A stretch of 58,679 bases of DNA, counting the filler, from Catajapyx aquilonaris (Eukaryota), in the NCBI GenBank assembly GCA_000934665.2. It is 2 parts of 2 records of this genome, joined end to end, with 100 filler letters (N's around TTAATTAATTAA, not from the genome) between each part and the next. Parts side by side here need not be neighbours in the genome. Positions count along the whole stretch, not along the records: positions 29,346 to 58,679 come from JYFJ02004814.1; 1 more part is not named here. One strand, 5' to 3'. Below, one piece after another: positions 35,808 through 39,572 of this stretch. How positions within the stretch are numbered: position 1 is the stretch's first letter; each line of letters begins with the position of its first letter. The notes under the pieces are model-generated. The model worked only from the letters and a program-made list of their open reading frames with translations. It was not told the origin of the DNA and searched no databases. Made by a program: the position numbers and the translations under genes.

Positions 35808-36247
35808 GCCTGCTGTCTCACCGAAAACAATTCGCCAAAAATTTTCACACATATCCAAAATTTCGGATCCCTTTCCCCGTTGTGTTAAGATACCATGGGG
35901 TGGGTGTCCGCTGGACCACTTCAAAATCCAGTTGGCGCCGCTGTTAGGGAGCTGAAACGGCTGAAACAGTAACATGAATAGGTAGAAACCAGAGCTGCAG
36001 CAGCCCAATAGCGAGAGAAGAACCTCGGCCTGATATTATACGTAGCGCATGAGTTTGTCCAGCACTACAACTGCAAATCATTCAGACCTCTCACATTCCA
36101 AAGTTGACCACGTGCTAATTCAGTTCTAGGAGAGACTTAATTTGAAATGCAAGTAGCTATCATGCCTAATTAATGAATGTACATGCCAAAATGATGTTTA
36201 TTAGGACATGCTCTGCTATGGTCCAATGGATGCAATTATTATCTGAC

Positions 36248-38400
36248 CTTCTTCCACGCAGGTGAGGGCATCGTCCATGATTTTGAGACCATCCGGACAG
36301 GCGCAGGATATCTTGGGTGACCTGTCGTTGATCTGAGGTGCAGGGAGGCAAAGGTGAGAGCAATGTCCATTGAGAGGCAAGCAGTGATTGATTCCGTCAG
36401 GCTGCCTTAGAGGATGGTAGATGTGGATGGCCATGGGCATCTGTAGCTGGAATTTCGAAGTGTTCTTCGAGTTTTAAAAAAACCGATAAATAAGATAAAA
36501 CATGCAATAAAAAATAGTCCAGAAGTGCTAATGGTGTGTATATACTCCGTGGGTGGCAGTGATAGGATTGACGTCCTTCCCGTTGAATTTGTTTGCCTTG
36601 TAGATGGCCTGCTTGTCCCAATTGGTCCAGTAGATCCAGTCCTCGAAGGTGGTGATGGAGAAAGGATGCTGAAGAGACTCGCGAGAGTACAAGACCAACT
36701 GCCTCTTGGAGCCATCAAAGTTGCAGGACGAGACCAGGTTCAGCTTCGCATCAATCCAGTAGATCCTCTTCAGAACCAGATCCAGTGTGAGACCATTGGG
36801 CCATCTGATCTGAGTCGAGACAATGGCCTGCCTGTGAGAACCATCCATTCCTGCACGCTCAATCTTGGGTGTGGTGCCCCAGTCAGTCCAGTACATCCAC
36901 CTAGAAACAAATTATTTCAACAAACTTTTTCTAGCATTTAGGTCCTTATAATGTCTGTAAAATAACCATCACTTGATAGTTGATCTCAACCCAATAGTTA
37001 AAAATCTTAATTAGATCTTACTGAATCCTGATCACAATATGAAACTGCTTTTCAAAATCCTTATAACATCTGTAATTCTAACATACCCGTCAAAAGGATT
37101 GACAGCTATGGACCTAGGTTCCTCCAGCTCATCAGTAAGAAGCACCTTTCTCATCTGGCCATCAAAGTCTGCAACTTCAATTGTATTTTTGCCAGTGTCG
37201 GCCCAGTAGATGTGGCTGTAAATCCAGTCAACTGCAAGTCCATCAACAGTGCCCACTTCGTCCCTGATGACAACAGTCCGCTCTTTGCCCTTATCAATTG
37301 GCGCCCTATCAAAAATTAATGTTAAATCTGGGCATGTCAGACATGGATCCAAACACATACTTGTAAATTTTTTCGTCATTGACATCGCTCCAGAAAATCA
37401 TGCCCATGCGATACACGTAGTCCAATGCAGTTGCACTTCTGGTGTTGTTGACGATGGAAGTCATTTCGTGGTGGTCCAGTGAAATCATCCTGATGTCAAA
37501 CCTGTGGGCGAATAGGAGTGAAGCGTGCCCTTCTGCCGCCTTGCATCGGGTGTGGTCCTTTGGATCCTTCAGGTAATACTCTTGGCATTCACACTTGTAG
37601 CTAGCCTTCACATTGATGCACGTCTGAGAGCAAGTACCTGGATGTTCGCACTCATTCACATCTGGAAAAGTGGAACAGTGTCCTTAATCAGTCAGGGCCT
37701 ACAGTGAAGACCTTCATGGACCATTCGAGTTGTCTCCAAGCCACACTCTTTGACGGTGAGTACCAACATACTAATACACGAAACTTGAATTTTGTGATAA
37801 TGATATAACTTGTTGAGCCCCACCTTCACAGGAGGTGTTTCCTATAAGCTTGAATCCCTTATGACACTCGCAATAAAATCCTCCTGGTGTGTCGACACAC
37901 TTCTGGGAGCAACCTCCATTGTTGGTCTCACACTCGTTCTGGCCGCACTTGTCCTGCGGCTCGTCCTCCCAGTTCCCGCAGTCATTCGCTTGGTTGCACA
38001 CCTTCTCCAGCGGTATGCACATTCCGACACCACAGTCAAATTCTGTCTTCTGGTCACACTGGGTGATAGGTGTGGCTGTAAGAAAAACACAATAAGCTAC
38101 TGGGACCCCCCCCCCCCACAAAAAAAAATACATGTGATCACATACTGCAATTCTCCTCATCGCTTTCATCCCTGCACTCCGCCTGTCCACTGCACTGAAG
38201 ATTTCCAGGTATGCACTCCATGCTGCGGCACAGGAACTGGTCTGGACGACACATCACATGCTTGCAATGTGCTGGATTCTCATCTGACGCATCGGGGCAG
38301 TCCTTGTCACCATCACACATCGAAGACAGATGTATGCAGCTGATTCGGTCTGCACACTCAAATTCCCTAGCATTGCAATGTGACGTTATGTTGGTCGATC
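36248..38400 (-). CDS. Lipophorin receptor/VLDLR-like ectodomain segment: 3 LDLa, 2 EGF, YWTD beta-propeller, EGF (six exons; no own N-terminus, TM or NPxY tail found)
   Basis: Exons 38400-38146, 38075-37824, 37661-37361, 37305-37087, 36900-36546 and 36446-36248 all have AG/GT ends with compatible phases (1-1, 1-1, 1-2, 2-2, 2-0, 0-1) and no stops. Motifs include CDGDKDCPDASDE, DVNECEHPGTCSQTC, IFWSD, DGLAVDWIYSHIYWAD, MYWTDWGTTPKIERAGMDG and CSHLCLPAPQIN. Confidence 0.93.
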
Positions 38401-38655
38401 CTGAAAACACACATTTATTAAATGGATGCAGAATTTGATATGGAATGGGAAGTTCTGCAAAGCTGCACAATCCTCTTAGAGCATCCTACAGTCATCTTAG
38501 GGGGGGAAATCATTAGAGAAGTCATTATAAGAAAATAAATCAGTATCTGCACAATGTTAAAATGTCGTGCGTGTATGTTAAAAAGTTGAATCCGCACTCT
38601 GTTAAAAAGCCATGTCTGCATTTCTGCGTGCTGTGGATTTGATTATTTTTTTTGC

Positions 38656-38716
38656 CAAGTGCCTCCTCATCAGAACCGTCAGGACAGTCCATGTCTCCAA
38701 TGCATCTCCATCGCAC
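38656..38716 (-). pseudogene. Decayed half of an LDL-receptor class A exon at the chimera junction
   Basis: VRWRCIGDMDCPDGSDEEAL is only the C-terminal half of an LDLa repeat. It has CIGD instead of CDGD, lacks the final Cys, and has GC where a phase-1 GT donor is expected (38655-38654). Confidence 0.8.
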
Positions 38717-38721
38717 CGTAC

Positions 38722-39572
38722 CAGATAAAATTAGGCTGGCAGTTGCTTTGTTCATTTCCTGTCCAATAAGAGCAGCTTCTCGCCTCATAGATGAGGTCAC
38801 ATTCTCCACTGCATTACTAATATTTTCCCTAAGTCTCTCTTCTGCTGCAAGACACACTTCCGACGCAGATGGTATGTCCCTAAAAGGCCAAATAAAGGTC
38901 TTCAGTGACATTGGTGTGACGATTCTCACCACTCAATACTGTGTAACATAACATTTCATTAAATTGCCCGTATTTTGAAGAACGAATTAGACATACAGAA
39001 CCTCATTTACACTACTTTTCTCAGAATTCCTCGATGTTTCACATATAGCAAATATTAACACACATTTAGCAGCTCCATATCAAACATCATGCTGGCAAAG
39101 TAAGGATGTTTAATAACACTTTCCACATCTACCTCTATTTTGCCTTTAATTTTTGGTGGCACTAAAAGCAGTAGATTGACAGTAGGTGGTTGCTCACTTA
39201 CCGGAATTCCTCTTTTAATGATGTTACTTCCTCTTTTAATGATTTCACTTCCTCCTTGATTTCTCTCACTTCTTGTGCTGCACAATGAAAATAGAAAGCA
39301 ATAGCACATTTTCAACCCACTTTAACGAGATGTGATAAGAATCAAAAACGGCCAATATTACCTGCTCGAGCAAATCCATCCTCCACAGTTTTCATCATTG
39401 TTTGTATGGCCAATTCCAGTCTCTCTTCCGTACTGGTTTGCTTCCTGTCGGCAGCACGGGGGATATTTTCAGCTGCATTGTTCGTCACTGACAGTTCCGG
39501 ATGACATATTCCGGACATAAACAGAAGGGTACCGGTAGCCAACAAATAGAGACAACTGATGTTGGTGATCAT
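38722..39572 (-). CDS. FReD-family 5' exons (signal peptide + coiled coil); predicted N-terminus of a FReD/lipoprotein-receptor chimera
   Basis: Exons 39572-39362 (MITNISCLYLLATGTLLFMSG...EERLELAIQTMMKTVEDGFARA), 39277-39202 (QEVREIKEEVKSLKEEVTSLKEEF) and 38879-38722 (DIPSASEV...NVTSSMRREAALIGQEMNKATASLILS) splice in frame (phases 1, 2, 1). They resemble the 5' exons of the genes starting at 42796 and 52481. A TATAAAT lies ~90 bp upstream. Confidence 0.85.

What the first reader, a model, noticed from the sequence alone, without database searches (positions are those of the whole stretch)
36036..39572. Chimeric gene: FReD signal peptide and coiled coil spliced in frame to a lipoprotein-receptor ectodomain
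Seen in sequence: three FReD-family 5' exons (39572-39362, 39277-39202, 38879-38722) end in a phase-1 GT donor (TCT G|GTACGG). This is the same position as the exon-3 donor of the intact paralog (TCC G|GTGATT, 53312). The next intact exon is not a fibrinogen exon but a phase-1 LDLa exon (38400), followed by five more intact receptor exons. The nine exons give 2026 nt of open frame. A candidate last exon (36070-36036, VVVLDKLMRYV*) would make a 686-aa protein, and read-through to the stop at 36216 is the alternative. No TM helix or NPxY motif was found downstream. Established knowledge: LpR/VLDLR proteins have 7-8 LDLa repeats, a TM helix and an NPxY tail; coiled coils N-terminal to fibrinogen domains drive oligomerisation; phase-1 exons are the usual units of exon shuffling. 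Inference: this is a young exon-shuffled gene encoding a secreted, possibly oligomeric LDLa3-EGF2-YWTD-EGF protein under the promoter of an immune-lectin-type gene, for example a soluble lipoprotein carrier or decoy receptor. I do not know of this architecture being described.
Basis: partly seen in the sequence, partly recalled or inferred. Interest (0 to 1): 0.9.

Follow-up and report, generated by a model that had tools for sequence, protein, structure and literature searches.

The report
Receptor fragment fused to lectin gene
A copied piece of an insect-type lipoprotein (lipophorin) receptor gene sits in frame behind the first three exons of a fibrinogen-related lectin gene, but the only transcript seen comes from another, better-conserved copy, so this is more likely a young gene fragment than a proven new gene.

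Summary
The exon map is right. Nine GT-AG exons on the minus strand give 2026 nt of open frame. The first three encode a FReD-type signal peptide and coiled coil. The other six match the cockroach lipophorin receptor (LpR) at 73% identity over 528 aa without gaps.

- Half an LDLa repeat lies in frame directly after the exon-3 donor, so LpR homology starts 3 nt past the exon.
- A decayed fibrinogen-domain remnant lies just downstream, at 35844-35624.
- Truncated fibrinogen exons lie at 31994-31212.

One RNA-derived contig (run X5) splices exons 4-9 as predicted. It then continues from the 36248 donor for 3463 nt into sequence absent from the window. It differs from the window at 40 of 1574 letters. 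At 8 of 8 polarisable amino-acid differences the contig keeps the conserved residue and the window copy is derived, including YWTD to YWTN.

The window therefore most likely holds a young partial LpR duplicate with relaxed constraint, embedded in a wrecked FReD gene. The chimeric frame exists in the DNA. Splicing from 38722 to 38400 is untested. This is a known kind of event and of modest interest.

The parts
39662..39669 (-). TATAAATA box, about 90 nt upstream of the ATG
   Evidence: Read directly. Function not tested.
39362..39572 (-). FReD-type exon 1 (ATG, hydrophobic signal-like N-terminus), phase-1 donor
   Evidence: 35% identity over 46 aa to exon 1 of neighbouring FReD gene A (E 2.8e-6), with the intron at the same place after DGFA..
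39202..39277 (-). FReD-type exon 2, heptad (coiled-coil-like) repeats
   Evidence: A 21-nt tandem repeat, 2.3 copies.
38722..38879 (-). FReD-type exon 3, ending in a phase-1 donor
   Evidence: The end peptide LILS-G resembles LIES-G of gene B exon 3.
38720..38721 (-). Junction: the GT after exon 3. FReD homology ends at 38722 and LpR homology starts at 38719
   Evidence: X5 record 27 fits 38502-38719 and then departs from the window.
38663..38719 (-). C-terminal half of an LDLa repeat, in frame with exon 3. It lacks the 6th Cys and any phase-1 GT donor
   Evidence: Pfam Ldl_recept_a profile 19-35 of 37, E 1.4e-4. 15 of 18 residues identical to Blattella LpR residues 181-198, the repeat just N-terminal of the block.
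38146..38400 (-). LpR exon, two LDLa repeats (phase 1-1)
   Evidence: X5 contig covers 38377-38146 with 0 differences.
37824..38075 (-). LpR exon, LDLa + EGF-A
37361..37661 (-). LpR exon, EGF-B + start of the YWTD propeller
37087..37305 (-). LpR exon, YWTD blades
36546..36900 (-). LpR exon, YWTD blades. Carries the D584N change (YWTD to YWTN)
36248..36464 (-). Phase-1 donor at 36248
36197..36218 (-). Read-through stop TAG (36218-36216) followed by AATAAA (36202-36197)
   Evidence: Read. Use not tested.
36036..36070 (-). No support from any result. Weak likeness to the linker exon of FReD gene A (E 3.9)
35624..35844 (-). Decayed 3' end of a fibrinogen_C domain, with an in-frame stop and a frameshift
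   Evidence: tblastn E 0.007 in two frames. Pfam Fibrinogen_C profile 168-208 of 221, E 2.3e-6, 28 bits. Frames shown.
31212..31994 (-). Three fibrinogen_C exons (31994-31876, 31774-31633, 31312-~31212). The last loses homology after about profile position 110. The phase-1 acceptor at 31994 is frame-compatible with the donors at 38722 and 36248

Best explanation
The window comes from an arthropod FReD (fibrinogen-related lectin) gene cluster. In one FReD gene, the sequence after exon 3 has been replaced by a DNA-level copy, about 2.5 kb long, of part of the lipophorin receptor (LpR/VLDLR-type) gene. The copy keeps its introns. It runs from the middle of an LDLa-coding stretch through LDLa x3, EGF-A, EGF-B, the YWTD propeller and EGF-C. 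The organism's working LpR is a second, more conserved copy outside the window. That copy is the one seen spliced and running on to further exons. The junction happens to keep the exon-3 GT donor, and all receptor exons are phase-1 compatible, so a 675-686 codon chimeric frame exists on paper. I infer that it is a young partial duplicate under relaxed constraint, a chimeric pseudogene in the making or at best an untested young gene. I do not think it is an established secreted receptor. Shown: the anatomy, the LpR identity, the existence of a second copy and its onward splicing, and the derived replacements in the window copy. Inferred: the duplication mechanism, the non-functionality and the age.
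For: (1) Anatomy. FReD exons 1-3 are followed, 3 nt after the donor, by half an LDLa repeat. Six LpR exons come next, collinear with Blattella LpR residues 205-732 at 73% identity over 528 aa without gaps. The half repeat matches residues 181-198 of the same protein in 15 of 18 positions. (2) No other LDLR-type exon occurs in the window. Ten LRP queries gave 217 HSPs, all inside 36204-38437. Six LpR/VLDLR queries gave nothing below E 0.1 outside 36200-38720. No F.NP.Y tail exon was found. (3) Wreckage of the recipient gene: an FBG 3' remnant with a stop and a frameshift at 35844-35624, and a downstream FBG last exon that loses homology near profile position 110. (4) X5 record 26 (5039 nt) joins 38377-38146, 38075-37824, 37661-37360, 37304-37085, 36898-36549 and 36465-36248. 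It then goes on for 3463 nt unlike the 12-kb stretch. Its next 30 and 18 letters are nowhere in the window. (5) That contig differs from the window at 40 of 1574 letters. At all 21 of the 21 listed positions its letter is also held by DNA runs of sample S1, so both versions coexist in one sample. None of the 40 listed variant rows lies in the unique flanks, though 16 rows were not shown. (6) Of the 21 listed differences, 11 are synonymous and 10 are not. At 8 of the 10 non-synonymous ones the contig has the residue conserved in 10 orthologues and the window copy is derived; the other 2 cannot be polarised. The sign test gives P = 0.004. The derived changes include K376M and D584N, each at a site invariant in 10 of 10 orthologues. 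(7) A model with both copies under strong constraint is rejected (P = 0.001). A window-copy omega near 0.5 fits best. (8) X5 record 27 fits 38502-38719 and then continues for 174 nt unlike the window, exactly at the homology boundary. The same segment therefore exists in another context.
Against: The copy is more intact than a neutral relic of this divergence should be. It has no stop, no gap in 1574 aligned letters, all 36 of 36 conserved cysteines and all splice sites. P(no stop) is about 0.29 for about 27 substitutions, and indels would lower that further. A fully neutral window copy is borderline rejected (P = 0.05-0.06). The breakpoint lies within 2 nt of the exon-3 boundary and keeps a usable donor, and an AATAAA follows the read-through stop. 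Both fit a working chimeric gene. Divergence is mosaic: 2 of 450 letters 5' of intron 4 against 40 of 1342 letters 3' of it (P = 0.0009). That could reflect gene conversion or an assembly switch between copies. The DNA runs that hold the junction are probably the sample the window was assembled from, so they are not independent. I could not see a listed contig bridging 38720, because the tables were cut. Only 21 of the 40 differences were visible.
Confidence: 0.5

Rival explanations
1. One reading: a functional young chimeric gene. The FReD promoter, signal peptide and coiled coil drive secretion of an oligomeric LDLa3-EGF2-YWTD-EGF protein. The protein ends by read-through (stop at 36216, AATAAA at 36202-36197) or at a small 3' exon, and acts as a soluble lipophorin binder or decoy.
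For: A 2026-nt open frame with 8 of 8 GT-AG introns. The junction keeps the donor and phase 1. All 36 of 36 conserved cysteines are kept. There is no gap against the other copy over 1574 letters. The window-copy omega is near 0.5 rather than 1, and full neutrality is borderline (P = 0.05-0.06). A TATA box lies upstream and AATAAA lies 14 nt after the read-through stop.
Against: Derived replacements sit at sites invariant in orthologues, including the Asp of a YWTD motif. Only 3 of the usual 7-8 LDLa repeats are present. In Drosophila the N-terminal LA-1 module plus its extension is needed for LTP binding and lipid uptake (PMC4486166, passages read), and that part is absent here. The surrounding FReD sequences are decayed or truncated. 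Intactness could also come from youth or from a recent past as part of a whole LpR paralogue.
Confidence: 0.2
2. The junctions are not real or not general. This would be an assembly mis-join between near-identical LpR copies and the FReD cluster, or a structural variant private to the sequenced individual. The window-type receptor exons would then belong to a complete second LpR gene or haplotype.
For: In another sample, X5 record 27 leaves the window exactly at 38719. Divergence is mosaic, with a switch near the poly-T/G run in intron 4 (38100-38135). The breakpoint coincides exactly with an exon boundary. No listed DNA contig longer than about 430 nt spans 38146-38833, although nothing variable was listed there. 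The constraint-like signal would be natural for a whole paralogue.
Against: There is no N run between 29345 and 52207. FReD exon 3 and the LDLa half repeat share no repeat that could mislead an assembler (self-BLAST of 35500-41000 found only one unrelated FBG match). Both sides of the receptor block abut FReD-derived sequence, which would need two independent mis-joins. The three DNA runs hold 0.79-0.83 of the sampled words of 35600-39650.
Confidence: 0.22
3. A normal LpR gene lies at this locus with FReD genes nested in giant introns. The remaining LDLa exons would lie more than 19 kb upstream and the TM and tail exons more than 36 kb downstream. The X5 transcript would be an allele.
For: X5 record 26 splices these very exon boundaries and runs on from the 36248 donor. 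Low-depth X5 contigs lie on 38502-38719 and 35224-35865 like intron signal.
Against: The LDLa repeat next upstream is cut in half at 38719 and abuts a FReD exon. Internal introns are 55-320 nt, yet no flanking exon exists within 19 and 36 kb. There are eight derived replacements at conserved sites on the window version and none on the other, which is odd for an allele of an essential receptor. Both versions coexist in one DNA sample whose unique flanks show no listed variants.
Confidence: 0.05
4. A composite FReD gene. The receptor block would be spliced in between the coiled coil and the fibrinogen exons at 31994, giving SP-coiled coil-LpR ectodomain-FBG. Alternatively the block is skipped and a plain FReD is made.
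For: The donors at 38722 and 36248 and the acceptor at 31994 are all phase 1, and both products stay in frame.
Against: The last FBG exon loses homology after about profile position 110 and runs into unrelated sequence and a stop, so either product has half a fibrinogen domain. No contig joins these exons (joints table).
Confidence: 0.03

Closest known systems
Insect lipophorin receptor (LpR; VLDLR-type LDLR family), e.g. Blattella germanica LpR (P0124, 863 aa)
   Same: 73% identity over 528 aa without gaps, from the third-last LDLa repeat through EGF-A, EGF-B, the YWTD propeller and EGF-C. The order is collinear, including the half repeat before it. All 36 of 36 conserved cysteines are kept.
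   Different: The first LDLa repeats, the O-linked region, the TM helix and the NPxY tail are all absent. The N-terminus is replaced by FReD exons. There are derived changes at conserved sites.
FReD/FREP lectins of arthropods, including the window's own genes A (42796-40592, minus strand) and B (52481-54394, plus strand)
   Same: Signal-like N-terminus, heptad region, same intron position after exon 1 as gene A, and same phase-1 end of exon 3 as gene B.
   Different: The open frame has no fibrinogen_C domain. Only a decayed remnant and truncated exons lie downstream.
Chimeric genes and pseudogenes made by partial (tandem or dispersed) DNA duplication, as catalogued in Drosophila (PMC5460883 and PMC4069613; search listing and abstract starts only)
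   Same: A partial copy of one gene that keeps its introns is joined to the 5' part of another, giving a new in-frame combination under a foreign promoter. The parent gene is retained.
   Different: Here transcription across the junction is untested. The recipient gene is destroyed rather than duplicated.
Classical exon shuffling of phase 1-1 LDLR and EGF modules (recalled textbook knowledge; no paper read here)
   Same: The receptor block is a symmetric 1-1 set (1581 nt) lying behind a phase-1 donor.
   Different: The breakpoint lies in LDLa-coding sequence, 3 nt past an exon end. This is not recombination between two introns.

Membership tests
LpR / VLDLR-type LDLR-family receptor | N-terminal cluster of 7-8 LDLa repeats | tested here: not met
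   Three whole repeats plus a C-terminal half repeat. No other LDLa exon in the window.
LpR / VLDLR-type LDLR-family receptor | EGF-A, EGF-B, YWTD propeller and EGF-C in order | tested here: met
   Pfam hits on exons 5-9. Gapless 528-aa alignment to Blattella LpR.
LpR / VLDLR-type LDLR-family receptor | Transmembrane helix and cytoplasmic F.NP.Y tail | tested here: not met
   The 4 NP.Y matches in six frames have no tail context. No tail or TM hit with LpR queries. The onward exon of the transcript is not in the window.
LpR / VLDLR-type LDLR-family receptor | Conserved structural residues kept (six Cys per module, YWTD Asp) | tested here: inconclusive
   36 of 36 conserved Cys kept, but 26 of 267 insect-invariant sites changed. 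At least K376M, F401Y, K523R and D584N are specific to the window copy.
FReD / FREP lectin | C-terminal fibrinogen_C domain in the same reading frame | tested here: not met
   None in the 2026-nt frame. Only the remnant at 35844-35624 and truncated exons at 31994-31212.
FReD / FREP lectin | N-terminal signal peptide and coiled coil homologous to family members | tested here: met
   Exon 1 against gene A: E 2.8e-6 with the same intron position. The end of exon 3 matches gene B in peptide and phase. No signal-peptide predictor was run.
Young chimeric gene from partial duplication | DNA junction of parts of two genes, introns kept, parent retained | tested here: met
   junction; second, more conserved copy, expressed and complete downstream.
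Young chimeric gene from partial duplication | Transcript spliced across the junction | not testable with these tools
   No run on record as RNA was listed. The one RNA-derived run laid has no contig at the junction. The cap on read laying is spent.
Young chimeric gene from partial duplication | Purifying or positive selection on the new copy | tested here: inconclusive
   Pooled dN/dS is 0.23 from 21 of the 40 differences. Window-copy omega near 0.5 fits. omega = 1 gives P = 0.05-0.06. Strong constraint on both copies is rejected, P = 0.001.
Processed (retro) pseudogene | Loss of introns, poly(A) tract | tested here: not met
   Five LpR introns are retained.

The most novel reading that the evidence does not exclude
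A lineage-specific new gene: the promoter, signal peptide and coiled coil of an immune-type lectin drive secretion of an oligomeric lipophorin-receptor ectodomain fragment (LDLa3-EGF2-propeller-EGF). The transcript would end by intronic polyadenylation at 36202-36197. The protein would act in haemolymph as a soluble lipophorin trap or pathogen decoy, perhaps only after immune challenge. Its amino-acid changes would reflect a new role rather than decay.
Probability: 0.17. Interest if true: 0.6.

Novelty: new member of a known kind. Interest (0 to 1): 0.3.

Why it matters
If the junction is real, this is a fresh, datable example of how a phase-compatible block of receptor modules can land behind a secretion and oligomerisation cassette. 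That is the raw material of exon shuffling, caught before its fate is decided. It is also an annotation trap: gene finders will either call a truncated "VLDLR-like" gene or fuse it to the lectin, and near-identical LpR copies can corrupt expression and variant calls for the true receptor. If it proved to be expressed and selected, it would be a rare soluble LDLR-family protein in an arthropod immune gene cluster.

Tried and rejected
- Whole-genome search: no genome is held for this window, so the parental LpR locus could not be found.
- The look-up of sequencing runs: no RNA holder listed. X5 is of unknown kind on record, and I call it RNA-derived only because its contig skips the introns.
- Parts without cover in X5: no contig lay on 38722-40122 (FReD exons 1-3 and promoter), on 36247-35866, or on the FBG exons at 31301-32503.
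- Copy number from word depth: receptor-block contigs are about 1.3-1.6 times the flanks, and the two branches at 36663-36747 have depths of 27-32 each. The tool states that depth is no copy number and that human-like conserved exons are filtered, so I did not use it.
- FReD exon 1 against 5.8 billion proteins, longer class: 68 candidates, none at E <= 0.01.
- LpR exon 8 search: swamped by multi-propeller LRP4/6 proteins, best identities 45-57%, no near-identical parent listed.
- LpR exon 4 search: 14 of 23 candidates passed, the best at 70% identity, and again no near-identical protein. The organism's own proteome seems absent from that collection.
- Self-BLAST of 35500-41000 against the window: only one FBG-to-FBG match, so there is no second copy of the block or of the FReD 5' exons in the window.
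- Pfam on 114 of the 129 ORF pieces of at least 85 aa (the 15 left out lie in 36219-39626 and were covered): only FBG, ankyrin and Lig_chan hits.
- Rfam and tRNA scans of the window: nothing.
- Literature: three searches listed no paper on a FReD-LpR or FReD-LDLa chimera. This rests on listings only, so it is weak evidence that the architecture is not in print.
- one FBG exon was sent one base out of frame (31633-31773) and gave no hit. The in-frame ORF had matched.

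
Full report
**Observation.**
Their lengths are 211, 76, 158, 255, 252, 301, 219, 355 and 199 nt, giving 2026 nt of open frame. All 8 of 8 introns are GT..AG, and a GT follows 36248. Exon 1 starts with a hydrophobic, signal-like peptide. Exon 2 is a heptad repeat, seen as a 21-nt tandem repeat.

Exon 1 resembles exon 1 of the neighbouring FReD gene A (E 2.8e-6) and has its intron at the same place. Gene A is a complete 545-aa FReD gene at 42796-40592. Exon 3 ends in phase 1, like exon 3 of FReD gene B at 53312, and with a similar peptide (LILS-G against LIES-G).

Pfam assigns the six further exons to two LDLa repeats, LDLa + EGF, EGF, YWTD blades and EGF.

**What the receptor part is.**
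The block is an arthropod lipophorin receptor (VLDLR type). With exon 4 as query, the best hits are termite, cockroach and other insect VLDLR/LpR proteins at up to 70% identity (14 of 23 candidates passed). The whole block aligns to Blattella LpR residues 205-732 at 73% identity over 528 aa without a gap. An ionotropic-receptor-like ORF at the window's end also points to Arthropoda.

- *Half an LDLa repeat at the junction.* Directly after the exon-3 donor, and in frame with exon 3, lies the C-terminal half of an LDLa repeat at 38719-38663. It matches Pfam profile positions 19-35 of 37 (E 1.4e-4). It is identical in 15 of 18 residues to Blattella LpR 181-198, the repeat that precedes the block in the receptor. 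FReD homology runs to 38722 and LpR homology starts at 38719, so the junction lies within the two letters GT. The half repeat lacks its sixth cysteine and has no phase-1 GT donor.
- *A dead fibrinogen remnant.* About 400 nt downstream of the block lies the 3' end of a fibrinogen_C domain, at 35844-35624. It has an in-frame stop and a frameshift. Pfam matches profile positions 168-208 of 221 (E 2.3e-6).
- *Truncated fibrinogen exons.* Further downstream lie three fibrinogen exons (31994-31876, 31774-31633, 31312-~31212). The last loses homology near profile position 110. The donors at 38722 and 36248 both fit the phase-1 acceptor at 31994, but either product would carry only half a fibrinogen domain.
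- *No other receptor exon.* There is no other LDLR-type exon and no F.NP.Y tail exon anywhere in the 58.7 kb.

The receptor block is therefore flanked on both sides by FReD-derived sequence. The recipient FReD gene is wrecked.

**Transcript evidence.**
No run on record as RNA holds the stretch. Run X5 comes from a different sample and study than the DNA runs. It has a 5039-nt contig (record 26) that lies on 38377-38146, 38075-37824, 37661-37360, 37304-37085, 36898-36549 and 36465-36248, skipping the predicted introns. Four of the five joints have CT..AC ends on the + strand.

The receptor exons are therefore real, spliced exons. The contig then continues from the 36248 donor for 3463 nt that lie on nothing in 30900-42900. 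Its next 30 letters, and the nearest 18, are absent from the whole window. By my own reading they would translate as APEHHLVRYK.

The contig starts 23 nt inside exon 4, so it says nothing about what is spliced upstream. A second X5 contig (record 27, 393 nt) fits 38502-38719 with two differences. It then goes on for 174 nt unlike the window, exactly at the LpR/FReD boundary.

**Two copies.**
Record 26 differs from the window at 40 of 1574 letters. By exon the counts are 0 of 232, 6 of 252, 6 of 302, 10 of 220, 12 of 350 and 6 of 218.

At all 21 listed positions, X5's letter also occurs in contigs of DNA sample S1. At 36663-36747 both versions stand side by side in all three S1 runs. None of the 40 listed variant rows falls in the unique flanks, although 16 rows were not shown.

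Of the 21 listed differences, 11 are synonymous and 10 are not. At 8 of the 10 non-synonymous ones the transcript has the residue conserved in ten orthologues and the window copy is derived. These are K376M, F401Y, T453A, T516A, K523R, V559L, P564R and D584N, the last turning a YWTD motif into YWTN. The other two cannot be polarised. The sign test gives P = 0.004.

The window copy is therefore not just an allele of the working receptor. It is a second copy with relaxed constraint. The conserved copy is the one seen expressed and complete downstream.

**How constrained is the window copy?**
- Pooled dN/dS from the visible differences is 0.23.
- Strong constraint on both copies is rejected (P = 0.001).
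- A neutral window copy is borderline (P = 0.05-0.06).
- An omega near 0.5 fits best.

The copy keeps all 36 of 36 conserved cysteines. It differs at 26 of 267 sites invariant in nine insects. It has no stop and no gap against the other copy. That is somewhat more intact than a neutral relic of this divergence should be: P(no stop) is about 0.29 for about 27 substitutions, before counting indels.

This leaves room for three readings. The copy may be a working young gene. It may have been part of a complete paralogue until recently. Or it may simply be very young.

**Unexplained.**
- Divergence is mosaic. There are 2 differences in 450 letters over 38719-38502 plus 38377-38146, against 40 in 1342 over exons 5-9 (P = 0.0009). 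Gene conversion or an assembly switch at the poly-T/G run in intron 4 could cause this.
- The breakpoint coincides to within 2 nt with an exon boundary.
- A low-depth X5 contig lies on 35224-35865, which includes the fibrinogen remnant.
- X5's version of the half LDLa repeat differs by at most two letters from the window's defective one. The repeat may therefore already be a relic in the parent's intron.

**Verdict.**
The most likely reading (about 0.5) is a young, DNA-level partial duplicate of the lipophorin receptor gene, embedded in a destroyed FReD gene. This creates an in-frame chimeric ORF whose expression is untested and whose sequence shows relaxed constraint.

| Reading | Probability |
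|---|---|
| Young partial LpR duplicate in a destroyed FReD gene | about 0.5 |
| Assembly mis-join or private structural variant | about 0.22 |
| Normal receptor with nested FReD genes | about 0.05 |
| Composite FReD gene with the block spliced in | about 0.03 |

The normal-receptor reading is unlikely given the halved LDLa repeat, the absent flanking exons and the one-sided derived changes.

In Drosophila the N-terminal LA-1 module and its extension are needed for LTP binding and lipid uptake (PMC4486166, passages read). That part is missing here, so any function would not be ordinary lipid uptake.

Chimeras made by partial duplication are a well-known kind (PMC5460883 and PMC4069613, listing and abstract starts only). 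Three literature searches listed nothing on a FReD-LpR chimera.

Noticed in passing
window 42796-40592 (minus strand): Complete six-exon FReD gene A (545 aa: signal peptide, three 24-nt tandem repeats, coiled coil, acidic linker exon, fibrinogen_C). One DNA run lacks one 24-nt repeat unit at 42641.
   Followed up: partly
window 52481-54394 (plus strand): Complete six-exon FReD gene B on the opposite strand. Its exon 3 is spliced directly to the first fibrinogen exon, with no linker exon.
   Followed up: partly
window 57191-58678 (minus strand, open at the window end): A 496-aa open frame resembling arthropod ionotropic (IR/iGluR-type) receptors. Pfam Lig_chan E 1.2e-5, below the curated cutoff; atlas clusters are mostly Arthropoda.
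   Followed up: partly
window 48410-49075 (plus strand): A 222-aa open frame with a weak ankyrin-repeat match (E 5e-5 to 3e-4). The surrounding 48-51 kb is GC-richer (0.49-0.50) with many overlapping long ORFs on both strands.
   Followed up: no
window 34910-35310 and 40123-40523: Very high-copy repeats, with summed word depth of about 10^4-10^5 in the DNA runs against about 35 in the flanks. They also appear in the RNA-derived run. Loose ends resemble a tRNA-like arm, but ARAGORN and Rfam found nothing.
   Followed up: partly
window 34050-34245 (minus-strand reading): A near-perfect inverted repeat of about 180 nt (hairpin, MITE-like). DNA contigs show alternative joints here.
   Followed up: no
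window 30900-31300: Repeat (word depth about 500-760) starting where the last fibrinogen exon of the downstream FReD fragment loses homology. It probably marks the insertion that truncated that gene.
   Followed up: no
window 36197-36218 (minus strand): AATAAA lies 14 nt after the stop that read-through from the 36248 donor would reach. This could be an intronic polyadenylation site giving a soluble receptor form, in the parent gene too.
   Followed up: no
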